From Candidatus Magasanikiibacteriota bacterium (GTDB lineage: Bacteria; Patescibacteriota; Patescibacteriia; Magasanikbacterales; GWA2-37-8), in contig DAIOHD010000001.1 of NCBI GenBank assembly GCA_036744835.1, forward strand, positions 736,064 through 800,063: DNA of 64,000 bases, in the 5' to 3' direction. The notes under the pieces are model-generated. The model was given only the letters and a program-made list of their open reading frames with translations. It made no database searches and had not been told where the DNA came from. Shown here piece by piece: positions 437 to 63,661 of this stretch. How positions within the stretch are numbered: the first letter of the stretch is position 1; every line of letters begins with the position of its first letter. The position numbers and the translations under genes were made by a program.

Positions 437-546
437 GAATGTCATTGCGAGACCCGAAGGGACGCTAAGCGTTCCGAAGGGTCGTGGCAATCCCACTACT
501 TTCTGAACTTCATGAGATTGCTTCGTCATTACATTCCTCGCAATGA
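437..546. repeat. GTCATT-family element copy 1: 11-bp terminal inverted repeat GTCATTGCGAG ... CTCGCAATGAC enclosing ~88 nt with CCGAAGGG direct repeats
   Basis: Perfect IR gtcattgcgag (437-447) / ctcgcaatgac (536-546). Reverse complement aligns with the copy at 2163-2253 (gtcattgcGaggaatgTaatgacgaagcaat...ttcagaaagTagtgggatt). Confidence 0.5.
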
Positions 547-920
547 CAGTAGTGTTCGGTTTATTTTTTTTAAAAAAATAAACCAAAAAGACCCTCCCTT
601 TGGTTGCCTTTATAATAACTTAAAAAACTGTCTTTGGCAACTGGATAAATTTCGTTTAATTTATTTAAAATCCGCCTTTTCCACAAACACTTCAACCTAT
701 AGGTTGAAGTGTTTGTTTTGGCTAAAATAAAGGGATTATTCCCTCCTCTTCCTCAAGAGGAGGGCTAGGGTGGAATTTTTTAAAAAGACTCTCCCCTAAC
801 CTCCGCCTTCATCCAAGCTCCGTTAAAGCTACGCTGGACTACGGACGGACAAGCTCTCTCTTACATAAAAGAGGGGAATAAAAAACCCGCGCAGATATGC
901 ACGGGGTATGAAAGAACTTT

Positions 921-1451
921 TTAAGATATACGACGGAGAAGTAGACCAAGATGATTCCAAAAATCATTCTCCAGCGGCCTATAGTTTTTGGTCCATTCGT
1001 ATTCTTCCTTCCTCACATCATAATAACAATCGTCAATATAATAAAGCATTTCAGAATCATGGCCTTCGCTATTATTCCAGTTTGTAAAAATAAAATAATA
1101 ACGATAAAAACCACCAGGAATATCTCGTTGATGTTCCAAGATATAATCAGCATCATCAGCACCAAGACAAGCATTCAACGCCCTTGCTCTCTTGATAACT
1201 TCGTAACCAGTGATGGGCTTTTCTTTATCCTTTAGATATGGGATAACTTCATAGACCCTGTCGCCAATTTTCATTTCAACTGGCAAGGTTTCATACTTTT
1301 TTTCAGCAAAAGTAAGCTTTTTGCAAAACTGTAAAACCTTTTCTCTGTTTTCTCTCTCGATCAGTTTTTGGGAATTTTTTTCTCCCAAATCATTAAAAAA
1401 AACATCAACCTCTTGTTTAGATAATTTTACTTCATCCATCAGTCTCTCCAA
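921..1451 (-). CDS. hypothetical protein (no recognisable domain)
   Basis: 176-aa ORF from track; ordinary codon composition; no motif recognised. Confidence 0.4.
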   Translation of the reverse strand: MERLMDEVKLSKQEVDVFFNDLGEKNSQKLIERENREKVLQFCKKLTFAEKKYETLPVEMKIGDRVYEVIPYLKDKEKPITGYEVIKRARALNACLGADDADYILEHQRDIPGGFYRYYFIFTNWNNSEGHDSEMLYYIDDCYYDVRKEEYEWTKNYRPLENDFWNHLGLLLRRIS

Positions 1452-1551
1452 ATCTTTTCAGAATTTATAAATAAAAGGAACAAATTTGTTGATTGCTTAT
1501 ATTATTACAATATAAAGGTTTTGTCAATATAACTTTAACGCTTTATAAAAA

Positions 1552-1585
1552 CCAAAACTCGCCATTTTCAGGCGAGCTTTTTATA
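1552..1585 (-). terminator. rho-independent terminator (ctcgcc-attttca-ggcgag flanked by A-run/T-run), downstream of the 1643-2029 gene
   Basis: 6-bp GC stem plus flanking A/T tracts read directly. Confidence 0.45.
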
Positions 1586-1642
1586 ATTTGGATATTTTTT
1601 TATTCGGAGTATTCGGATATAATTTGTAGATTCGGATTATAT

Positions 1643-2029: not shown

Positions 2030-2107
2030 AGATCCTCCTTATTAAATTTTAATTATATTTAGATTATAACATTTTTTAAAATATTCGACAAGTAATTTGT
2101 TTAAAAT

Positions 2108-2300
2108 AACTCAAAACTCAAATGTCAAATCTCAAAACTACAATTTAAAACCTTAAAACCCTGTCATTGCAAGGAATGAAATGACGAAGCAATACCACAA
2201 AATTCAGAAAGCAGTGGGATTACTTCATCCGCTTTGCGGATTCGTAATGACACTTATCGTTAGTTTTGACATTTAAGGTTGTGGTTTTAACTTTTGAGAT
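2108..2300. repeat. MITE-like element copy A (composite): arms homologous to copies at 7847-7962 and 20487-20584, with a GTCATT-family element (2163-2253) nested in the core
   Basis: Left arm aactcaaaactcaaatgtcaaatctcaaaac matches copy B left arm. Right arm tagttttgacatttaagg..ttttgagatt is its inverted counterpart. Core replaced by gtcattgcaagg...cgtaatgacac. Confidence 0.55.
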
Positions 2301-2304
2301 TAAT

Positions 2305-4767
2305 CTAATTTCTAATCTCTGCCCCAAACTTATCTTTCAATATTTTCACTATCTCCCCCATCACATCATCCACCTCTTCGTTCTTCAAAGTACGAGTGGA
2401 ATCGGAAAAAACAAAATGATACGCCATACTTTTAAATCCCTCTTTGACATGTTCGCCTTCATAAACATCAAACAATTCCACGAATTTCAAAATCGGTGAA
2501 ATATTTTGCAAAGATTTTAAAATTTCTTGATGTGTAACTTTTTTTTCTGCCACAAAAGCCAAATCACGAGTAGGTTCTGGAAATTGAGATAATGTTTGAT
2601 AAATAAAATCTTTTTTGGTTTTCAAAATATCTCGCAGATCGCTGAGATTTATTTCTACCACTCCAACTCTATCATTCAAATCCCATTTTTTGGCAGTGAG
2701 TGGATTGAGCTCATATACAAAACCTATTTTTTGCTCTTGCACCATCATCTCCCCGGCTCTGCCTGGATGCATATAACCTTTGATTTCTTTAATTTCTCTT
2801 AAATCAAAATTGAGTTGCAAATTTTCCATCACTTTTTCCAAAACCAAACGCGCTTTGATAAAACCGTTGTCACTTTTTTTCTCATAATTTATCGCGGTCA
2901 AGAAAACATCCTGACGTGGTAAAAGCTCATCTTCATTAGAAATTTCTCTTGGCCCCGGTAATTCAGATAAATATGTTTTTCCAATTTCAAAAATATCCAC
3001 CCGATCAAAATTTTCCATATTCTTTTGGACATTTTCCAATAAGTTTGGTAACAATTCTCGACGTAAATAAGGTTTTTCACTAGACAAAGGATTATCTAGT
3101 TCCAAATATTTATTTTTATCTTCACCCAAACGATCTATTTGCAAACCACTAACAAAAGAATAATTATCAACTTCATCGTAAACCAATTCTTTGGTCAAAA
3201 TATTTCGCAAATTGTGTTCCAAATCGCGTAAAATATTTTTTTCTGGAGGAGTAATTTCAAACTCCGGCATAGTGCTTTCGATTTTATCATAACCATAAAT
3301 CCTACCAACTTCTTCAATCAAATCTTCAGAAAGAGATATGTCTTTGGTAGCGCGCCAAGTCGGTATTTTGACACTCAATCCGTCTTTGCCTTTTTCTTTA
3401 ACTTCAAAACCCAGTCTTTGCAAGATACTGATGATTTCTTTTTTCTCAATTTGCACTCCAAGTTTTTTACAAATATCGCTCATGCTAGTTTGTAGCGGTC
3501 CAGTAGCTAGGTGGAAGTTCTTTTTATCTTCTACATTACTTATCACTTTGGCCTCAGAACAAAGCTCCAGCACCATCTCCACCGCTTTTTTCAAAGCTAT
3601 TTCCGCCATATTGGGGTCCAGGCTTTTTTCAAAACGAGCAGAGGAATCCGTGCGACTATCATAATGTAACGCGGTTTTACGCACACAAACTGGATCAAAA
3701 TTCGCAGCTTCAAAAATAATCTCTGTGGTATTGTCATTTATCCCACTATAAAATCCGCCCATCACCCCAGCAAGCGCGATAGGTTTTTCATCATCTGCAA
3801 TAACCAAATCGTTTTCCGTCAAAGATAATTCTTTTTCATCCAACAATTTGAATTTTTCTTTGTCAGTTGCTGTGCGAACAATGATGTGTTTTTGATTTTT
3901 GTTTTTTGTTTGGAGAGTTTGAGCGTCAAATGCATGAAGTGGTTGTCCCAAATCAAACATTATATAGTTAGTAATATCAACAATATTATTGATACTGCGC
4001 AAACCGATAGATGACAGCGCTCTTTGTAACCAGAGAGGCGACGGGCCAACTTGCACTCCGCTTATCGCTACAGCCATATAGCGCGGACAAAGCGGTTCAT
4101 CCTCCACTGTAACTTTCAATTTTATTTCTTTGCCCGGAGTTATTTCTTTTGTTTCGTAAGCACCAAATTCACGAGGAAAAAGCACAGCCACTTCGCGAGC
4201 GATACCATAATGTCCCCAGAGATCAGGACGATTGGAAAGAGATTTGTTGTCAATTTCCAAAATCACATCGTCTAATCCAAGAGCTTTTTTCAAATCCACC
4301 CCAACTTTCAAATTTAGCATGGTCAAATCCAAAATTTCTTTTTCATCTTTGAGCGGAAACATTTCAGTCAATCCGATTTCGCTCCCCGCACAAATCATGC
4401 CATAGGAATCTATGTCTCTGATTTTGGTCGGTACGATTTCCACCAACTCCCCCTCGCCGTGCCAACGAACTTTAGCACCTACTTTGGCCACTGCTACGAG
4501 CATGTCAGTAGTAACGTTACTGCCACCACAAACAATCTGAACTTTCTCTTTTCCCAAATCTACTTGGCAAAGTTTCAATTTATCAGCGTTGGGATGTTTA
4601 TCGGCTTTAAGCACCTTACCCACTACAATATTTTCTAAATTATCACCTTGTTTTATAATATTTTCCACTTCTACTGTACTCAATTTCAATTTCTCCGCCA
4701 CTATTTCGGGGGTGATGGAGTCAGGGATGGTAACGTATTTTTTCAGCCAATTGTATGAAATTAACAT
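2305..4767 (-). CDS. pheT: phenylalanine--tRNA ligase beta subunit
   Basis: 820 aa; MLISYNWLKKYV start, B3/4 and tRNA-binding regions, C-terminal FDVYEG..SMAY motif typical of PheT. Confidence 0.95.
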   Translation of the reverse strand: MLISYNWLKKYVTIPDSITPEIVAEKLKLSTVEVENIIKQGDNLENIVVGKVLKADKHPNADKLKLCQVDLGKEKVQIVCGGSNVTTDMLVAVAKVGAKVRWHGEGELVEIVPTKIRDIDSYGMICAGSEIGLTEMFPLKDEKEILDLTMLNLKVGVDLKKALGLDDVILEIDNKSLSNRPDLWGHYGIAREVAVLFPREFGAYETKEITPGKEIKLKVTVEDEPLCPRYMAVAISGVQVGPSPLWLQRALSSIGLRSINNIVDITNYIMFDLGQPLHAFDAQTLQTKNKNQKHIIVRTATDKEKFKLLDEKELSLTENDLVIADDEKPIALAGVMGGFYSGINDNTTEIIFEAANFDPVCVRKTALHYDSRTDSSARFEKSLDPNMAEIALKKAVEMVLELCSEAKVISNVEDKKNFHLATGPLQTSMSDICKKLGVQIEKKEIISILQRLGFEVKEKGKDGLSVKIPTWRATKDISLSEDLIEEVGRIYGYDKIESTMPEFEITPPEKNILRDLEHNLRNILTKELVYDEVDNYSFVSGLQIDRLGEDKNKYLELDNPLSSEKPYLRRELLPNLLENVQKNMENFDRVDIFEIGKTYLSELPGPREISNEDELLPRQDVFLTAINYEKKSDNGFIKARLVLEKVMENLQLNFDLREIKEIKGYMHPGRAGEMMVQEQKIGFVYELNPLTAKKWDLNDRVGVVEINLSDLRDILKTKKDFIYQTLSQFPEPTRDLAFVAEKKVTHQEILKSLQNISPILKFVELFDVYEGEHVKEGFKSMAYHFVFSDSTRTLKNEEVDDVMGEIVKILKDKFGAEIRN

Positions 4768-4901
4768 ATTTTATTAAATTTTTAATTTTTAATTTTACAA
4801 TTTTTAATTAATTTTCAATTTCGTAATTTCGCCCGCCTGCCATTCGCCTTATGGCTCTAGGCCTTTGGCGGGCAGGTATTCTTTCATACGTTCGTAAGTA
4901 A

Positions 4902-7100: not shown

Positions 7101-7265
7101 AATAATTTAAGAAATTTAAAAAATTCAAAAGATTTAAGAAATTAAAAAACAATCTTTTAAATCTATTAAATCTTTTTAATCTTTTGAATATTGTTTCTTG
7201 CCTATTTCAGACAATACGGTATAATAAAACAACTTAACAAAAGTTAATTTATTATTTTAACCTAT

Positions 7266-7846: not shown

Positions 7847-7962
7847 AAACTCAAAACTCAAATGTCAAAAGTCAAAACTTTGGTGTCCCTGCGGGACAAT
7901 TTAATTAGACATCGCGAAGCGATACTTTAGTTTTGAGATTTGCATTTTGAGATTTGAGATTT
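7847..7962. repeat. MITE-like element copy B (~116 bp) with imperfect terminal inverted repeats and internal gtccc..gggac hairpin
   Basis: Aligns along its length with 20487-20584: ...aaaagtcaaaactt(t/c)ggtgtccc[hairpin]gcgaagcgatacNNtagttttgagatttgagattt. Confidence 0.6.
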
Positions 7963-7969
7963 AATTTTT

Positions 7970-12528: not shown

Positions 12529-12545
12529 AATTTTTAGTTCCTATT

Positions 12546-12639
12546 GTCATGCTGAATTTATTTCAGCATCTCCCCGTACCGCATAAAGGGGGATCCCGAA
12601 ATCCTCCAGAGGCGGACAGACAAAAGTTCGGGATGACAC
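12546..12639. repeat. possible GTCATT-family-related structured element (gtcatgc...cgggatgacac) in the clpC leader
   Basis: Ends tgtcatgctgaa...ttcgggatgacac resemble the termini of the 30539-30618 element (..gcggggatgacac). Internal cccgaa..ttcggg stem. Confidence 0.3.
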
Positions 12640-12652
12640 TTTCAAACTTTAC

Positions 12653-12685
12653 ATACTTAATACTAAATACTTGATACTTAATACT
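12653..12685 (+). promoter_or_regulatory. direct repeat ATACTTAATACT x2 spaced 21 bp, immediately upstream of the clpC start; candidate operator
   Basis: atacttaatact at 12653-12664 and 12674-12685; not a CtsR box. Confidence 0.3.
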
Positions 12686-20458: not shown

Positions 20459-20488
20459 AAAAATCCGCCAAAAGCGGATTTTTTTTAA
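20458..20488. terminator. bidirectional terminator between convergent radA and recG (aaatccgc-caaaa-gcggattt + T8)
   Basis: 8-bp stem, T-run on plus strand, A-run on minus-strand side. Confidence 0.6.
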
Positions 20489-20584
20489 ACTCAAAAGTCA
20501 AAACTTCGGTGTCCCGATTAAATCGGGACGATTTTTATTATAAATATTGCGAAGCGATACAATAGTTTTGAGATTTGAGATTTA
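20487..20584. repeat. MITE-like element copy C
   Basis: aaactcaaaagtcaaaacttcggtgtcccgattaaatcgggacg...gcgaagcgatacaatagttttgagatttgagattta; homologous to 7847-7962. Confidence 0.6.
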
Positions 20585-26725: not shown

Positions 26726-26762
26726 TTGCGTATATCGTATAAAGTATTTCGTATGTCGTATT

Positions 26763-26790
26763 TAAACCGCCAAAACTATGGTGGTTTTTA
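26763..26790 (+). terminator. terminator-like hairpin after der (aaccgcca-aaactat-ggtggtt with one G-U pair, then T5)
   Basis: Read directly; moderate stem. Confidence 0.35.
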
Positions 26791-26857
26791 TATATAAACT
26801 TGCTAATTTACATCCAGATACGATATACTATATACGCTATACTATATACAAATTTGT

Positions 26858-27385: not shown

Positions 27386-27415
27386 ATTTTCAATTAAAAA
27401 TTAAAAATTGTCACT

Positions 27416-28495
27416 GTGTATTTACTATTATCATTTTTCCCCAAAATCACCTATTCCCGCTTTAAAAAGGCGGTGAATTATTTTATTACTCCGGAAAATA
27501 TTTGGGAATCTGAAGTGTCTGACTTTATGAGTGCAGGTTGGGAAGAAAATGTATCCGCAGAATTTATTGCTTGGAAAGATAATCAAACAAAAGAAAAACT
27601 TCAAGAAATTTTGGACAAAGAAAATGTCCGAATTATAAATATAAATGACGAAGAATATCCGGAGTTACTCAAAAAAATTCCGGACCCACCTTTTACTCTT
27701 TTTGTACGTGGAAAAATACCACCCCTGACACCCAGAAGTTTGAGCGTGGTTGGTACACGCAAACATAGTGTTTATGCTAAAATAGCCACGGAAAAAATTG
27801 TTAGCGATTTGGCAAGACGCGGTTTTGTAATAGTTTCCGGACTGGCTCTCGGGATAGATGCCCTGGCTCACGAATACGCTCTAAAAGCTGGTGGAAAAAC
27901 TGTAGCTTTTTTGGGTAGCAGTGTAGCATCGCGCGAAATTTATCCGGTAAATAATCAAAAATTGGCTAATGAAATAGTAGCTTCTGGCGGAGCGGTAATT
28001 TCCGAATATCCACCTGGGTTTTTACCTACACTCTACTCTTTTCCCATGAGAAATCGCTTGATTGCCGGTTCTACTCCTGGAACACTAGTTATTGAGGCCC
28101 CAATGGGCTCAGGATCGCTAATTACAGCAGAAAATGCTAAAGAATACAGCCGAGTAATAATGTGCATTCCACACCCCATAAATTCAATTTTTGGCACTGG
28201 TGGTAATTTATTATTACAAAATGATGCGAAATTAATACTGAAAGCAGAAGATATTTTGGAAATTCTCAATCTAAATTTGGCTATAAAACAAACCACAGAA
28301 CAAACAGTAATGAATTTCAGCCCTGATGAAGAAAAAATATTGAATATTATGTCAACTGAGCCAAAAAATATTGATTTTATCATCCGCGAGTCCGGTCTTC
28401 CCGGTCCTCAGATTAGTGCTATAATGGTATTTTTGGAAATGAGAGGAATTATCAAAAATGCTGGGAATATGAATTTTTACAAAAATATCGTTTAA
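27416..28495 (+). CDS. dprA: DNA-processing protein DprA (Smf)
   Basis: Rossmann core SLSVVGTRKHSVYA...VIVSGLALGIDALAHEYALKAGGKTVAFLGSSV and C-terminal winged-helix-like region. Confidence 0.85.
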   Translation: MYLLLSFFPKITYSRFKKAVNYFITPENIWESEVSDFMSAGWEENVSAEFIAWKDNQTKEKLQEILDKENVRIININDEEYPELLKKIPDPPFTLFVRGKIPPLTPRSLSVVGTRKHSVYAKIATEKIVSDLARRGFVIVSGLALGIDALAHEYALKAGGKTVAFLGSSVASREIYPVNNQKLANEIVASGGAVISEYPPGFLPTLYSFPMRNRLIAGSTPGTLVIEAPMGSGSLITAENAKEYSRVIMCIPHPINSIFGTGGNLLLQNDAKLILKAEDILEILNLNLAIKQTTEQTVMNFSPDEEKILNIMSTEPKNIDFIIRESGLPGPQISAIMVFLEMRGIIKNAGNMNFYKNIV

Positions 28496-30487: not shown

Positions 30488-30538
30488 AGAAAACACTAAT
30501 TTAAAAACACGAATTAACGCAAATAAAAAGTAGAGAAT

Positions 30539-30618
30539 GTCATTCCCGCATAAACAAAAATCCAGTGGCAATTACTAACTTTAACTTTCCTGGATCCCCG
30601 CCTTCGCGGGGATGACAC
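30539..30618. repeat. GTCATT-family element copy 3 (gtcattcccgc ... gcggggatgacac terminal inverted repeat)
   Basis: 11-bp IR; internal ccagtggcaatt resembles cagtgggatt of copies 1 and 2. Confidence 0.45.
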
Positions 30619-36733: not shown

Positions 36734-36815
36734 GCCCTGGTGGCGGAATTGGTAGACGCGCACGACTCAAAATCGTGTACCGCAAGGTGTGAGAGTTCGA
36801 TTCTCTCCTAGGGCA
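36734..36815 (+). tRNA. tRNA-Leu, anticodon CAA as read (class II, long variable arm)
   Basis: gccctggtggcggaattggtagacgcgcacgactCAAaatcgtgtaccgcaaggtgtgagagttcgattctctcctagggca; cloverleaf with variable stem taccgcaaggtg. Confidence 0.75.
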
Positions 36816-36817
36816 CT

Positions 36818-36856: not shown

Positions 36857-36861
36857 AGGGT

Positions 36862-36985
36862 TCCCCGGGAGAGAATCGAACTAGGAAAGGGAGAAAACGT
36901 GAGTTTTCTCTTGCTGAGGAAAGGTATTGGAAAACCCGAAGGTTTTCCAAGGAGGAAGCCGAAGGCTGACGACGTGAGTCTTCTC
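36862..36985 (-). ncRNA. candidate structured RNA (~125 nt): closing helix ggagagaa/ttctctcc, three internal hairpins, minus-strand cUUCGg tetraloop. 3' end carries an inverted 15-nt copy of the tRNA-Leu T-arm/acceptor (agttcgattctctcc)
   Basis: Hairpins ttggaaaacc-ttcg-ggttttccaa, gagaaaac-tcac-gttttctc and agcc..ggct on the minus strand. GC-rich island in AT-rich spacer. Overlapped only by an implausible ORF (36848-37156). Confidence 0.4.
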
Positions 36986-41329: not shown

Positions 41330-41450
41330 AAAATCCCAATGTCCAAATCCCAATTTCCAATCAATGCCCAATGCCTAAATGTCCAAATGTAATTGGGGTT
41401 TAGAATTTGGGATTTGATTGGTCATTGGGGTTTGGTCATTAAAAAGTATT
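41330..41450. repeat. CCAAT/CCAAA-rich palindromic spacer between map and ruvX (arms ...aatcccaatgtccaaatcccaatttccaat... / ...attggtcattggggtttggtcatt...)
   Basis: Imperfect long inverted repeat of short degenerate units read directly. Confidence 0.4.
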
Positions 41451-60319: not shown

Positions 60320-60420
60320 TTTATTTAAGAAATTTAAGAGATTTAAGAAATTTAAGAGATTGAAAGATTTTTATAAAAACAAATAATTTTTTAAATCTTT
60401 TTAATCTTTAAATCTTTTAA
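60320..60420. repeat. AT-only palindromic spacer: tandem aagaaatttaagagattt x2 mirrored by tttaaatctttttaatctttaaatctttt
   Basis: Read directly; related word set (aaagatttaa / ttaaatcttt) also at 7101-7180 and 34860-34892. Confidence 0.4.
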
Positions 60421-60423
60421 ATA

Positions 60424-61960: not shown

Positions 61961-62362
61961 AAAAATAATAAAAAATAAAACAAAGAACGAGTTACATTAC
62001 CTTATTTTGACGTTTTTGTCAATACCCTCATCCCCACCCCGCCCGGACCTTCTTTTTTTATAAAAAACAACTGGTAAGGCGAGCATTTGTAATCGCGAAG
62101 ATAAAATTTATAGACGAGCTGAGCGTTAAAAAATTCCACTTGTTTGAGCCCGAAGGGTGAGTTTGGAATTTTAGTGAAGCGACGTCATAAATTTACGTAG
62201 CGATTATAACAGCGAGCGATTTTCTTTCAGTCCACTTTCTTTTCTAAAAAGAAAGTGGACAAAACTGCGAAGCAAAATAAAAATATTTAGAAAGAAGGAT
62301 GTTGGAATAACAAGGGAGACAAAAACTCTCCCTTAATCCCTCTCTTGAGGAAGAGAGGGAAA

Positions 62363-63661
62363 CTACAGCAAAGGTACCTGTCTGAATTTATTTATCTCTT
62401 TCTCCCCCACCAACCCTATCTTCCCATACACCCCATCATATCCCGGAGACAGATCTACCCTGCCAGTACGCATATTATTGATAGCTAACCACAGCTCCGG
62501 ATATTTTGTATGTTGCAAAATTTCCTTTTCACCAGCTTTTGTCAAAATATAAAATTCCGAACCGATATTTTTGATCAGATGTTCGTATTCGGCTACAACT
62601 TTTTTGGATTTGGGGCCAACTTCCAAAATTTGCGATAAAATTTCCAGGAGCGGGACAATATATTTGTGCGGAATAAATTTTTCCCACGGAATTTCGCTCA
62701 CTTCCCTACTGGCCAAATCATCCACCCTGTGTTCCACCCCTATGACCAGAGGTTTTTTGCATTTCGGGCAAATATTTTTTTCTTTCTTGCTTTGTTTGGG
62801 AGATAAACAAACACCGCAAACCGCATGACCGTCGTATTGGTACATTCCTTCTTCTGGATAAAATTCAATTGTATATAAAAACTTTTTTCTATCTCCAGTA
62901 AAAATTATTTTTTTGATTTCATCATAAGTAATTTTGTTTTCGTCGGCAAAAGAAAAAACATTTGCTTCACGTCCTAGTTTATCCAAACTATGGGCATCAG
63001 AATTTGATACCAAAGTTATTTTATCTAGTTTTTCCAAGCGATGGTTCATGTTTGGGTCACTACTTAACCCTGTTTCTATCGCACAAATTTGGGGAGTGAG
63101 CTCTTCAAAACATTCTTCCAAACTGTCATAACCGGATTTGGAACCGAAAATAGCATACCAAGGAGTCCAGGCGTGCGCCGGAATCATAAAACATCTTTTG
63201 TCGGCTTTCAAAATCAGCTGTAAAAGTTTTTTTGCCGACATGCCGATAATCGGCCGGCCATCGGATCGGCGATTCAAACCCAGTTTATCAAAATCATCAT
63301 TGATTTTTTCCACCGCCTGCAAACTCGGCGCGAAAATGAGCAAGTGTACCCGACGGGTTTTATCTTTGTCTTTATAAATACAAGAAATTTCCGTACCAAG
63401 TATGAAGCGTGTCGGATTTTTCCCCTCCTTTTGTGAAGAGGAGGGCGAGGGTGGAGTCTTTAATTCAAAAAGTCCGCTATTACCAATTTCTTTCAATTCT
63501 TTTTGAATATGTTCAAACCATTTCGGGTGGGTAAAATCACCGGTGGCCACAATATCAATCCCTTTTTTGAGACACATGGCGGCAATTTTTGGCAATTCCA
63601 AATCCGGGCTACAAGCCCGTGAATATTTGGAGTGGATATGTAAATCAAGAATTTTTTCCAT
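62363..63661 (-). CDS. PHP-domain phosphoesterase with internal C4 zinc finger (endonuclease Q-like family)
   Basis: LDLHIHSKYSRACSP PHP N-terminus, ...GDFTHPKW..., later AHAWTPW, NSDAHS, and CGVC...CPKC finger. Contains low-complexity insert TPPSPSSSQKEG (see findings). Confidence 0.6.
   Translation of the reverse strand: MEKILDLHIHSKYSRACSPDLELPKIAAMCLKKGIDIVATGDFTHPKWFEHIQKELKEIGNSGLFELKTPPSPSSSQKEGKNPTRFILGTEISCIYKDKDKTRRVHLLIFAPSLQAVEKINDDFDKLGLNRRSDGRPIIGMSAKKLLQLILKADKRCFMIPAHAWTPWYAIFGSKSGYDSLEECFEELTPQICAIETGLSSDPNMNHRLEKLDKITLVSNSDAHSLDKLGREANVFSFADENKITYDEIKKIIFTGDRKKFLYTIEFYPEEGMYQYDGHAVCGVCLSPKQSKKEKNICPKCKKPLVIGVEHRVDDLASREVSEIPWEKFIPHKYIVPLLEILSQILEVGPKSKKVVAEYEHLIKNIGSEFYILTKAGEKEILQHTKYPELWLAINNMRTGRVDLSPGYDGVYGKIGLVGEKEINKFRQVPLL

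What the first reader, a model, noticed from the sequence alone, without database searches (positions are those of the whole stretch)
2108..2300. Nested repeat: GTCATT-family element inserted inside a MITE-like copy
Copy A of the MITE-like family retains both terminal arms (aactcaaaactcaaatgtcaaatctcaaaac ... tagttttgacatttaagg..ttttgagatt). Its gtccc-hairpin/gcgaagcgatac core is replaced by a 91-bp element bounded by GTCATTGC...GTAATGACAC (2163-2253). The same GTCATT element occurs on its own elsewhere (437-546 in opposite orientation, 30539-30618). One repeat family nested inside another suggests that at least one of the two is, or was, mobile.
Basis: seen in the sequence. Interest (0 to 1): 0.6.

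Follow-up and report, generated by a model that had tools for sequence, protein, structure and literature searches.

The report
Composite hairpin repeat with nuclease-motif core
The flagged 193-bp stretch is one copy of a multi-copy hairpin-forming repeat in a tiny uncultured (CPR) bacterium. Its AT-rich arms carry at their tip a gene-less pair of the hairpin motifs that small GIY-YIG "Ssn" single-strand DNA nucleases recognise, so it extends a recently described repeat/nuclease system rather than being a new kind of thing.

Summary
Window 2108-2300 has AT-rich heptamer-repeat arms shared with copies at 7848-7965 and 20487-20584. It also has a sharply bounded 91-nt TGTCAT...ATGACA core (2162-2252), 81-87% identical to the free-standing copy at 440-548. 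The cited copy at 30539-30618 is a different subfamily.

The nesting did not happen at this locus. A metagenome scan found the same arms-plus-core composite, with the same junctions, in about seven to nine other flanking contexts. The composite is therefore itself the repeated unit.

It is present or absent between relatives. L086/L087 are filled where the window has 30 nt. At the pheT-downstream site, relatives 93-97% identical in the flanks carry other hairpins, and a more distant relative (L004) carries none.

The core is an inverted pair of hairpin modules with the grammar GTC-palindrome-C, as in NTS/SRM repeats cut by Ssn GIY-YIG ssDNA nucleases (Chenal 2025). In relatives, identical termini tightly flank a 98-aa GIY-YIG gene. 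The core's own ATTGC-type modules surround an ssn homolog in another contig. The GTCATT elements therefore look like miniature, gene-less SRM-ssn-SRM units.

How the elements move, and whether they also act as terminators, is inferred rather than shown. Verdict: a new variant of a known kind, of moderate interest.

The parts
2108..2161 (.). Left arm of the composite. The outer part (2108-2139) is a degenerate heptamer array, AACTCAA x4.6. The inner part (2140-2161) is specific to the composite family.
   Evidence: TRF period 7. Exact 22-mer shared with 7848. Sharp left boundary in the alignment of 10 copies.
2162..2252 (+). Core: a 91-nt TGTCAT...ATGACA element, an inverted pair of SRM-like hairpin modules around a central stem-loop (CCAC-15 nt-GTGG, 2195-2217).
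   Evidence: 81-87% identical to 440-548. 16 unique family members collected. Module grammar GTC + AT..palindrome..AT + C.
2162..2194 (+). Left module, TGTCATTGCAAGGAATGAAATGACGAAGCAAT-A. This copy differs from the family consensus at 4 positions. One of them is A instead of the C that follows the palindrome.
   Evidence: Comparison with the family consensus. A near-identical module lies directly upstream of an ssn homolog in L164.
2218..2252 (-). Right module, TGTCATTAC-GAATCCGCAAAGCGGATGAA-GTAAT-C. This subtype is found only in arm-embedded copies.
   Evidence: A both-sided stem change, ATTGC/GCAAT to ATTAC/GTAAT, with the L091 intermediate.
2253..2300 (.). Right arm, T-rich and complementary to the left arm. 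The number and type of heptamer units vary between copies.
2096..2321 (.). Segment with no counterpart in close relatives. It comprises the composite, short flanks and the last 5 codons of pheT (C-terminus ...GAEIRN* instead of ...GVEVRG*).
   Evidence: BLAST breakpoints against L001, L003, L006 and L089. Sequences.
2063..2091 (-). Promoter-like site (TTGTCG-17-TGnTATAAT) of the 128-aa gene, 17 nt beyond the left arm. The composite therefore sits between the pheT stop (2305) and the next promoter.
   Evidence: Conserved in relatives.
440..548 (-). Free-standing core-type element (no arms) upstream of dnaE. The loop of its right module carries an extra nested 20-nt hairpin (ACGCTTAGCGT).
   Evidence: Orthologous copies in L089, L090, L094 and L104.
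7848..7965 (.). Arm-bearing copy B, with the alternative core (GTCCC-TGC-GGGAC and ATCGC-GAA-GCGAT mini-hairpins), between the LemA and M48 peptidase genes.
   Evidence: 127/129 identical in L006 although the flanks are about 85% identical.
20487..20584 (.). Arm-bearing copy C, with shorter arms and the same two-hairpin core as B, between convergent genes.
30538..30617 (.). TGTCAT...ATGACA element of the canonical NTS-like subfamily. 30590-30617 (-) matches the published SRM search motif. The left module is degenerate.
   Evidence: The right 28 nt are identical to the SRM abutting the ssn gene in L107.
12545..12638 (.). Fourth TGTCAT...ATGACA pair element, followed by a heptamer array (ATACTTA x4.7) at 12653-12685.
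27386..27415 (.). Empty site. The relatives L086/L087 carry a composite copy here, between the pth and dprA orthologs; the window has only 30 nt.

Best explanation
Window 2108-2300 is one copy of a multi-copy, non-coding, hairpin-forming intergenic repeat of Magasanikbacteria-like CPR bacteria. The repeated unit is itself a mosaic. AT-rich arms built of degenerate heptamers form a stem of about 50 bp. At its tip the stem presents a 91-nt core made of two inverted hairpin modules.

The modules follow the grammar of NTS/SRM repeats: GTC, then a palindrome beginning AT and ending AT, then C. These repeats are the ssDNA substrates of the small GIY-YIG nuclease Ssn. TGTCAT...ATGACA elements such as this core are gene-less miniatures of compact SRM-ssn-SRM units found in related genomes.

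Shown:
- the modular architecture and sharp junctions;
- spread of the composite as a unit;
- presence/absence and replacement between relatives;
- apparent inversion of the inner part between the outer arms at one locus;
- adjacency of both module types to ssn homologs elsewhere.

Inferred: when the DNA is single-stranded (replication, transformation or cruciform extrusion) the modules fold and are bound or nicked by an Ssn-type nuclease. Repair by recombination or template switching with other copies would then copy, flip or replace the element.

The position between the pheT stop and the next promoter, and the A-rich / GC-hairpin / U-rich layout on both strands, make a secondary role as a portable bidirectional terminator or insulator plausible but untested.
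For: Family and unit:
- A pattern scan returned 21 metagenome loci. 12 of them carry the arm-embedded core with the same inner arms and junctions, in about 7-9 distinct flanking contexts (several loci are duplicates or share a flank).
- Free-standing cores lie in 5 other contexts.
- The composites are 88-93% identical to the window copy, while the syntenic genes of L086 are only 72-83% identical.

Polymorphism:
- L086/L087 are filled where window 27386-27415 is empty.
- At the pheT site, L003/L089 (flanks 93-97% identical) carry a TTACGAA-type hairpin. L001 and L006 carry other types. L004 carries none.
- The inner arms and core are inverted relative to the same flanks in L099 versus L095/L103.
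- Short-read contigs identical to the window break at 2136 and 2266, on either side of the inner arms and core.

Link to Ssn:
- The grammar is met by the modules at 441(+), 516(-), 2218(-), 12546(+), 12592(-) and 30593(-).
- Window 30590-30617 matches the published SRM regex (PMC11893778).
- L107 and L123 (Magasanikbacteria) carry TGTCAT-SRM / 98-100-aa GIY-YIG gene / SRM-ATGACA units.
- 17 of 28 viral contigs with ssn homologs have such modules within 600 nt.
- In L164 an ssn homolog sits in an array of ATTGC-type pair elements whose left module is nearly that of this core. In L163 the right-module type of the 440-548 copy lies upstream of an ssn homolog.
- The stem covariation ATTGC/GCAAT to ATTAC/GTAAT supports module-own hairpins.
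Against: - The core's ATTGC-type modules fail the published SRM search motif. This copy's left module has A where the binding-critical C should be.
- No ssn-type gene lies in the 64-kb window.
- The GIY-YIG gene found about 5.5 kb beyond the window start in 85-92% identical relatives belongs to another subfamily. That subfamily is associated with tRNA genes and GCTAAGC hairpins, not with TGTCAT modules.
- No target-site duplication or consistent insertion target was seen.
- No nuclease activity, transposition or termination has been demonstrated for these elements.
- Ssn has been shown to restrict transforming ssDNA, not to mobilise repeats.
- Some context differences and the inversion come from short-read metagenome contigs and could be assembly chimeras at repeats.
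Confidence: 0.65

Rival explanations
1. In-place nesting. A B-type arm hairpin sat downstream of pheT and a GTCATT element transposed into its core at this locus.
For: Arms and core each exist separately in the window. Insertions at hairpin tips recur. One TGTCAT element is nested in another in L007 7014-7149. A 20-nt hairpin is nested in the loop of the right module of the 440-548 copy.
Against: The same composite, with identical junctions, inner arms and a private right module, occurs in about 7-9 other contexts. No relative carries a B-type hairpin at the pheT site; they carry unrelated hairpins or none. The whole 2096-2321 segment is replaced, including pheT codons.
Confidence: 0.07
2. Repeated site-specific insertion. 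Arm hairpins are the mobile or pre-existing family, and the core inserts independently but always at the same apex position, so each composite is a separate nesting event.
For: Tip-of-hairpin nesting is seen at three levels. An ssDNA-specific nuclease would see hairpin loops.
Against: Arm-embedded cores share a right module (ATTAC/GTAAT, TCCGCTTTGCGGA hairpin) never seen in free cores. They also share inner-arm sequences absent from the B and C copies. No arm hairpin with these inner arms but without the core was found.
Confidence: 0.13
3. A purely functional RNA or DNA structure: a long bidirectional intrinsic terminator, insulator or mRNA-stabilising stem-loop kept by selection at intergenic sites. 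Similarity between copies would then come from recombination rather than from a dedicated mobility mechanism.
For: - It lies between the pheT stop and the next promoter.
- Both strands read as an A-rich arm, then GC hairpins, then a U-rich arm.
- Many intergenic sites in the window hold such periodic-arm hairpins, some with terminator-like tips.
- Hairpin occupancy of a site is conserved while the sequence changes.
Against: - The consensus terminator scan finds none at the element.
- L004 has no hairpin at the site.
- Copy B abuts a start codon inside an apparent operon.
- Orientation relative to transcription is not fixed.
- The core modules are conserved at sequence level across phyla and flank nuclease genes. 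A terminator role does not explain this.
Confidence: 0.12
4. A structured small-RNA gene or riboregulator family.
For: Strong folding z-scores. A 15-nt central loop is conserved between core subtypes.
Against: No Rfam match even at E<=10. No own promoter or terminator signature. Both orientations occur relative to the neighbouring genes. G-T versus C-A asymmetries point to opposite strands in the two window copies. SsnA does not act on RNA.
Confidence: 0.03

Closest known systems
NTS / Ssn-related motifs (SRM) and the Ssn GIY-YIG ssDNA endonuclease family (Chenal et al. 2025, PMC11893778)
   Same: - Hairpin repeats with a conserved GTC(A/T)(C/T) leader, a palindrome and a trailing C.
- Hundreds of intergenic copies, often flanking a single-domain GIY-YIG gene of about 95 aa on both sides.
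- Window 30590-30617 matches the SRM motif and nearly matches the Neisseria NTS.
- L107 and L123 show SRM-ssn-SRM units in this CPR lineage.
- ATTGC-type modules like this core surround an ssn homolog in L164.
   Different: - The core's ATTGC...GCAAT modules have a 5-bp stem and an 18-38-nt loop, and fail the published search motif.
- Here the modules occur as fixed gene-less inverted pairs (TGTCAT...ATGACA, 72-110 nt) and, in this copy, at the tip of 50-bp heptamer-repeat arms.
- The host is a CPR bacterium, whereas the paper reports mainly Pseudomonadati.
- No ssn gene lies in the window.
Neisserial intergenic mosaic elements (NIMEs: dRS3 + RS elements; PMC1797815)
   Same: - Mosaics of GC-richer 20-bp hairpin repeats and AT-richer repeat families.
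- The chromosomal positions of the arrays are conserved while their content is dynamic.
- A GC 'wave' is present: arms 20-27% GC and core 40-47% GC.
- NIMEs have been proposed as recombination substrates.
   Different: NIMEs are tandem arrays of dRS3-RS-dRS3 and were described as Neisseria-specific. Here a single palindromic unit has the hairpin motifs inside and the AT-rich repeats outside as a long stem.
REP/BIME elements and RAYT (IS200/IS605-like) transposases
   Same: - Short imperfect palindromes paired in inverted orientation.
- Multi-copy and intergenic.
- The cognate enzyme acts on ssDNA hairpins, and its gene is flanked by the repeats.
   Different: The enzyme class differs (HUH Y1 transposase versus GIY-YIG). 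The conserved tetranucleotide and architecture also differ. No RAYT was seen.
MITEs such as Correia elements (CREE)
   Same: Elements of about 100-200 bp with terminal inverted repeats. They are multi-copy, show presence/absence polymorphism, are intergenic and can carry regulatory signals.
   Different: No target-site duplication, no matching IS and no transposase-type TIRs. The arms are variable arrays of heptamers, and their unit number differs between copies.
Rho-independent (bidirectional) terminators
   Same: GC-rich hairpins flanked by A-rich and T-rich tracts, located at gene ends.
   Different: The total length (193 nt), the multi-hairpin core, the sequence-level family membership and occurrence inside operons all differ.

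Membership tests
Ssn-related motif (SRM/NTS) repeats | Match to the published degenerate motif HGTCWYN(0-2)YYVSBRHN(0-5)WNVSBRGN(0-2)RNCYNB | tested here: not met
   The core at 2162-2252 and the copy at 440-548 do not match. In the window only 30590-30617(-) matches, against 0.08 expected in shuffles.
Ssn-related motif (SRM/NTS) repeats | Oriented hairpin: GTC immediately 5' of the palindrome (needed for cleavage) and C immediately 3' of it (needed for binding) | tested here: met
   Met by 3 of the 4 modules of the two ATTGC-type elements, and by the elements at 12546 and 30593. The left module of this copy has A instead of C.
Ssn-related motif (SRM/NTS) repeats | Repeats flank a single-domain ssn (GIY-YIG) gene in genomes that carry them | tested here: inconclusive
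   - Met in relatives and elsewhere: L107 and L123; 17/28 viral contigs, including ATTGC-type flanks in L163 and L164.
- No ssn gene lies in this window.
- The nearby GIY-YIG gene in L089, L090, L094 and L104 belongs to another subfamily.
- The rest of the genome could not be read.
Ssn-related motif (SRM/NTS) repeats | The associated protein belongs to CDD family cd10448 | not testable with these tools
   Only Pfam PF01541 could be assigned. The SRM-flanked, 95-100-aa, single-domain criteria of the paper are met by the ssn98 type.
Ssn-related motif (SRM/NTS) repeats | Strand-specific binding and cleavage by Ssn on ssDNA | not testable with these tools
   This needs biochemistry.
MITE | Terminal inverted repeats, small size and no coding capacity | tested here: met
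   Arms 2108-2161 and 2253-2300 are complementary. The element is 193 nt.
MITE | Multiple copies in unrelated genomic contexts, with filled and empty orthologous sites | tested here: met
MITE | Target-site duplication of fixed length | tested here: not met
   There is no consistent duplication at the boundaries of 10 aligned copies. The flanks are AT-rich, so a 2-nt TSD cannot be excluded.
MITE | Parent insertion sequence with the same termini | tested here: inconclusive
   No IS with heptamer arms was seen. For the core, the SRM-ssn-SRM unit (L107, L123) has the same TGTCAT/ATGACA termini, but Ssn is not a known transposase.
NIME (dRS3 + RS) | dRS3 (ATTCCC-N8-GGGAAT) repeats flanking RS elements in tandem arrays | tested here: not met
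   The dRS3-like palindrome is present only in the 30538-30617 type. There are no tandem dRS3-RS-dRS3 arrays in the window.
REP/BIME-RAYT | Associated RAYT (Y1 HUH) gene and REP consensus | not tested
   No systematic search was made. None was noticed among the ORFs inspected.
Intrinsic terminator | GC-rich stem directly followed by a U-run | tested here: not met
   The consensus scan of 1500-2600 finds terminator-like sites only at 1554-1580. The U-rich arm does follow the last core hairpin on both strands.
Rfam RNA families | Match to a curated covariance model | tested here: not met
   No family matched at gathering score, and no meaningful hit appeared at E<=10 over 380-2350.

The most novel reading that the evidence does not exclude
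CPR intergenic regions may run on a modular, ssDNA-hairpin-based exchange system. In this reading, gene-less SRM pairs and other GC mini-hairpins are copied into the tips of existing hairpins by an Ssn-type GIY-YIG nuclease plus template-switch repair. That would give recursively nested hairpins: a hairpin inside a module loop, a pair inside a pair, a pair inside heptamer arms. It would also allow wholesale swapping of hairpin 'cassettes' at fixed intergenic sites between strains. This would be a mobility mechanism distinct from known transposases.
Probability: 0.15. Interest if true: 0.75.

Novelty: new variant of a known kind. Interest (0 to 1): 0.5.

Why it matters
Ssn nucleases and their hairpin motifs were described only in 2025, mainly in Neisseria and other Pseudomonadati. 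How the motifs multiply is an open question.

This locus and its relatives show four things:
- the system exists in streamlined CPR genomes;
- the motifs occur as discrete gene-less pairs with the same termini as compact SRM-ssn-SRM units, an autonomous/miniature relationship like IS/MITE or RAYT/REP;
- a motif subtype missed by the published search pattern (ATTGC...GCAAT) also flanks ssn homologs;
- such pairs can be captured at the tip of AT-rich heptamer-arm hairpins and then spread, flip and replace other hairpins between strains that are 93-97% identical.

This gives concrete substrates and natural filled/empty pairs for testing whether Ssn drives repeat proliferation. In practice, these elements break short-read assemblies of CPR genomes and spawn spurious small ORFs.

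Tried and rejected
- Rfam at gathering score and at E<=10 gave nothing relevant.
- Literature searches for the exact termini mostly returned primers. Only GTCATTCCCGC led to the Ssn paper. No paper on MITE or REP elements in CPR was found.
- The published SRM regex was applied to the core and does not match.
- A crude GIY-YIG tblastn from a remembered sequence found nothing. It was replaced by an ORF motif scan and real sequences.
- Exact look-up of pheT and the 128-aa protein, to find an empty copy in the same strain, returned only contigs that break at the arms.
- Scans of viral contigs for the arms, the B-type core and the central loop gave zero hits.
- A search for both flanks adjacent without the element among all loci found only the L086/window pair.
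- No target-site duplication was found.
- The extra 115 nt in L099 versus L103 turned out to be a local duplication, not an element.
- The MAFFT alignment A1 misaligned the long right modules, so stem pairs were counted explicitly instead.
- Chance or low complexity as an explanation is rejected by shuffles.

Full report
**Setting**

The window comes from a Candidatus Magasanikbacteria-like CPR/Patescibacteria genome. The best relatives of its pheT are Magasanikbacteria and Patescibacteria MAGs. The flagged region lies on the + strand between two minus-strand genes. These are pheT (2305-4767; Pfam B3_4, tRNA_synthFbeta and others) and a 128-aa ORF (1643-2029). The 128-aa ORF has a promoter-like site, TTGTCG-17-TGnTATAAT, at 2063-2091.

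**Check of the observation**

The left arm's 22-mer recurs at 7848, against zero expected in shuffles. The arms 2108-2140 and 2261-2293 are inverted repeats. A third arm-bearing copy at 20487-20584 shares the two-mini-hairpin core of 7848-7965.

The central 91 nt (2162-2252, TGTCAT...ATGACA) match 440-548 in opposite orientation, at 81% over 74 nt and 87% over 61 nt. The whole region folds with z about -4 as RNA on either strand and -3.2 as DNA.

Two corrections are needed:
- The copy cited at 30539-30618 shares only the termini and the architecture. It has no detectable sequence similarity to the other two.
- Between the B-homologous outer arm and the core lie composite-specific inner-arm sequences, 2140-2161 and about 2253-2293.

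A fourth TGTCAT...ATGACA element lies at 12545-12638.

**The composite is itself a repeat family**

A scan of metagenome contigs for AATGACGAAGCAAT-N15-23-AGTGGGATT returned 21 loci. Twelve of them carry the core embedded in the same arms, with the same inner-arm sequences and junctions. Counting duplicate and flank-sharing loci together, they fall in about 7-9 distinct flanking contexts: L086/87, L091, L092, L095/103, L096, L099, L101, L102 and L106.

Free-standing cores lie in five other contexts: L088, L093/105, L097, L098, L100, plus the dnaE-upstream orthologs.

Arm-embedded cores share a right-hand module (ATTAC...GTAAT stem with a TCCGCTTTGCGGA hairpin) that free cores never have. The left 60 nt, by contrast, are about 97% identical between the two kinds. 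The nesting therefore happened once, and the mosaic then spread. It did not happen at the pheT locus.

The alignment gives a sharp left boundary at A[AT]CTCAAA. The right end is ragged, because the number and type of heptamer units vary. No consistent target-site duplication is visible.

**Evidence for mobility or exchange**

- L086/L087 are syntenic with window 24.6-40.1 kb at 72-83% nucleotide identity. They carry a composite that is 91% identical to the window copy, between the pth and dprA orthologs. The window has only 30 nt there (27386-27415).
- At the pheT-downstream site the window's segment 2096-2321 has no counterpart in relatives.
  - L003 and L089 have flanks 93-97% identical and carry a TTACGAA-type hairpin.
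  - L001 carries an ATTNCAA-type hairpin and L006 a CTAA-type hairpin.
  - L004 carries nothing.
  - The replaced segment includes the last five pheT codons.
- L099 and L095/L103 share both flanks. Their inner arms plus core are in opposite orientation between the same outer arms.
- Short-read contigs identical to the window end at 2136 and 2266, which bracket exactly the invertible, repeated part.

Some context joins are mutually inconsistent (L091, L092 and L099 share one flank but not the other). These could be assembly chimeras, so the count of contexts is approximate.

**What the core is**

Each TGTCAT...ATGACA element is an inverted pair of hairpin modules. For this family the module reads TGTC-ATTGC-(variable insert, often itself a hairpin)-GCAAT-C.

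The arm-embedded right module carries a both-sided stem change, ATTAC/GTAAT, with L091 as a G-T intermediate. This change preserves the module's own hairpin but would break a whole-element pairing.

The grammar is that of the Neisseria NTS (CGTCATTCCCGCGMAVGCGGGAATCYRG) and of Ssn-related motifs. For those, the three bases 5' of the palindrome govern cleavage, and the C just 3' of it is the base most important for binding by the GIY-YIG ssDNA endonuclease SsnA (PMC11893778).

Window 30590-30617 matches the published SRM search motif. So do elements in the Magasanikbacteria loci L013 and L021. The ATTGC-type modules do not match it.

At the orthologous dnaE-upstream site, relatives carry TGTCAT...ATGACA elements of different subtypes.

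**Link to nuclease genes**

No GIY-YIG gene lies in the window. In relatives, two single-domain subfamilies appear.

1. *89-aa type.* This protein (PF01541, E 2.8e-15; nearest solved structures are UPF0213 proteins) lies about 5.5 kb beyond the window's left end in L089, L090, L094 and L104.
   - In all five gene contexts read from CPR metagenomes (L104, L107, L108, L111, L117/L119) it follows a tRNA gene and an array of NNN-GCTAAGC-NNN hairpins.
   - The same hairpin (ACGCTTAGCGT) is nested in the loop of the right module of the 440-548 copy.
2. *98-100-aa type.* This protein is tightly bracketed by inverted SRMs in L107 and in the Magasanikbacteria locus L123: TGTCATTCCCGCGAAGGCGGGAATCCAC, gene, CTGGATCCCCGCCTTCGCGGGGATGACA.
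   - The unit is about 360-385 bp.
   - Its right SRM is 28/28 identical to window 30590-30617.
   - The family is very large: at least 8000 hits, 65-78% identical across phyla, mostly on very short contigs.
   - Among 28 viral contigs encoding homologs, 17 have GTC-palindrome-C modules within 600 nt and 8 have them on both sides.

Two further contigs tie the ATTGC type to these genes. In L164 the ssn homolog sits inside an array of ATTGC-type pair elements. Their left module, GTCATTGCGAGGAAGAATGACGAAGCAATC, is nearly that of the window core. In L163 the right-module type of the 440-548 copy lies just upstream of the gene.

The GTCATT elements therefore have the architecture of gene-less miniatures of SRM-ssn-SRM units. 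The ATTGC type is an SRM variant that the published pattern misses.

**The arms**

The window holds many intergenic hairpins whose arms are degenerate 7- or 9-nt arrays. They include 7104-7189, 26729-26849, 41331-41440, 60323-60422 and 4777-4828, as well as copies B and C.

Their sites are conserved, but the sequence family at a site often differs between relatives. Copy B is 127/129 identical in L006 but is replaced by a CTAA-type hairpin in L005. That CTAA-type hairpin resembles L006's pheT-downstream hairpin.

Heptamer arrays also abut free TGTCAT elements (400-435, 12653-12685, L100) and the SRM array of L164.

The pattern has three features:
- GC-richer hairpin motifs combined with AT-rich repeat families;
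- conserved positions;
- dynamic content.

It parallels neisserial NIMEs, which were thought to be Neisseria-specific (PMC1797815). The GC profile here runs from 20-27% in the arms to 40-47% in the core.

**How it most likely works**

Shown: modular architecture, spread as a unit, presence/absence, replacement and apparent inversion, and adjacency of the module types to ssn homologs.

Inferred: the modules fold in ssDNA and are recognised by an Ssn-type nuclease. Nick repair by recombination or template switching between copies then propagates, flips or replaces elements. Nesting at hairpin tips is seen at three scales, which fits an enzyme that sees single-stranded loops.

A terminator or insulator role is plausible from the position and from the A-rich / GC-hairpin / U-rich layout. 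It is not supported by the consensus scan and is not required, since L004 lacks any hairpin at the site.

**Verdict**

The feature is real and well bounded.

It is a new variant of a known kind: Ssn-related hairpin repeats in a MITE/BIME/NIME-like mosaic, in a CPR host, with a composite arm-plus-pair unit.

Interest is moderate (0.5). It offers natural substrates and polymorphisms for testing how Ssn-associated repeats proliferate, but the mechanism remains inferred.

Noticed in passing
window 7104-7189, 26729-26849, 41331-41440, 60323-60422, 4777-4828; L001 2790-2930; L003 3595-3690; L006 6470-6585: This is a class of intergenic hairpins whose arms are degenerate 7- or 9-nt tandem arrays. Each sequence family is multi-copy. 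The site is conserved, but the family occupying it differs between strains with 85-97% identical flanking genes.
   Followed up: partly
window 7848-7965 vs L006 328-456: Copy B is 127/129 identical between the window and L006, while the flanking LemA and M48 peptidase genes are about 85% identical. That indicates either strong constraint or recent homogenisation. L005 carries a CTAA-type hairpin at the same site.
   Followed up: partly
window 2301-2324: The last five codons of pheT (...AEIRN*) are read from a sequence resembling an arm of the CTAA-type hairpin that L006 carries downstream of pheT. Hairpin turnover has apparently rewritten the gene's 3' end.
   Followed up: partly
L104 5943-6440; L107 2150-2779; L108, L111, L117, L119: An 89-90-aa single-domain GIY-YIG gene follows a tRNA gene and an array of NNN-GCTAAGC-NNN hairpins in all five gene contexts read from CPR metagenomes. 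In L117 a second hairpin array and another tRNA lie downstream. In relatives the gene lies about 5.5 kb beyond the left end of the window.
   Followed up: partly
L107 4881-5237; L123 ~1160-1545: These are minimal SRM-ssn-SRM units of about 360-385 bp, with inverted 28-nt motifs abutting the start and stop of a 98-100-aa GIY-YIG gene. In L123 the unit is inserted between an efflux adaptor gene and its ABC transporter gene.
   Followed up: partly
L007 7014-7149: One TGTCAT...ATGACA pair element (NTS-like) is nested inside the central loop of another (TTCTGAGC type).
   Followed up: partly
L099 364-559 vs L103 2823-2999 / L095: The flanks and outer arms are the same, but the inner arms plus core are in opposite orientation. 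This is either inversion between the inverted arms or an assembly artefact.
   Followed up: partly
window 572-642: A promoter-like TTGCCA-17-TATAAA is followed by a short hairpin and a T-run (ggcaaccaaagggagggtctttttggtttattttttt). It is conserved in L004, L005, L006, L089, L090 and L104, directly next to the variable TGTCAT element upstream of dnaE. It could be a tiny transcript or a leader.
   Followed up: no
window 643-1636: About 1 kb, including a 176-aa ORF (921-1451, no Pfam hit), is absent from L006 at the orthologous position.
   Followed up: no
window 733-780, 62321-62362, 63414-63461; L092 836-902; L099 1857-1923: This is another multi-copy GC-rich hairpin family (TTCCCTCCTC..GAGGAGGG..GGTGGA), which also occurs in related metagenome contigs.
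   Followed up: no
window 36794-36816 / 36860-36882: An inverted partial copy of the 3' end of tRNA-Leu lies 43 nt downstream of the tRNA gene. It may be a remnant of an integration event.
   Followed up: no
L086 10858-11054 / window 27416-28495: The composite copy in L086/L087 sits immediately upstream of the dprA ortholog (DNA processing protein A, involved in natural transformation). This is notable because SsnA modulates transformation in Neisseria, but it may be coincidence.
   Followed up: no
L164 1097-1135: A heptamer array (ATCTNNN x5) abuts the last ATTGC-type pair element next to an ssn homolog in an unrelated viral-collection contig. This echoes the heptamer arrays found next to TGTCAT elements in the window.
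   Followed up: no
L085 7540-8040: A phage-like contig carries a cluster of ATTGC-type modules between structural genes. The cluster gives rise to spurious ORFs such as ...DCFVALLLAMT... and ...RFAPRNDG...
   Followed up: no
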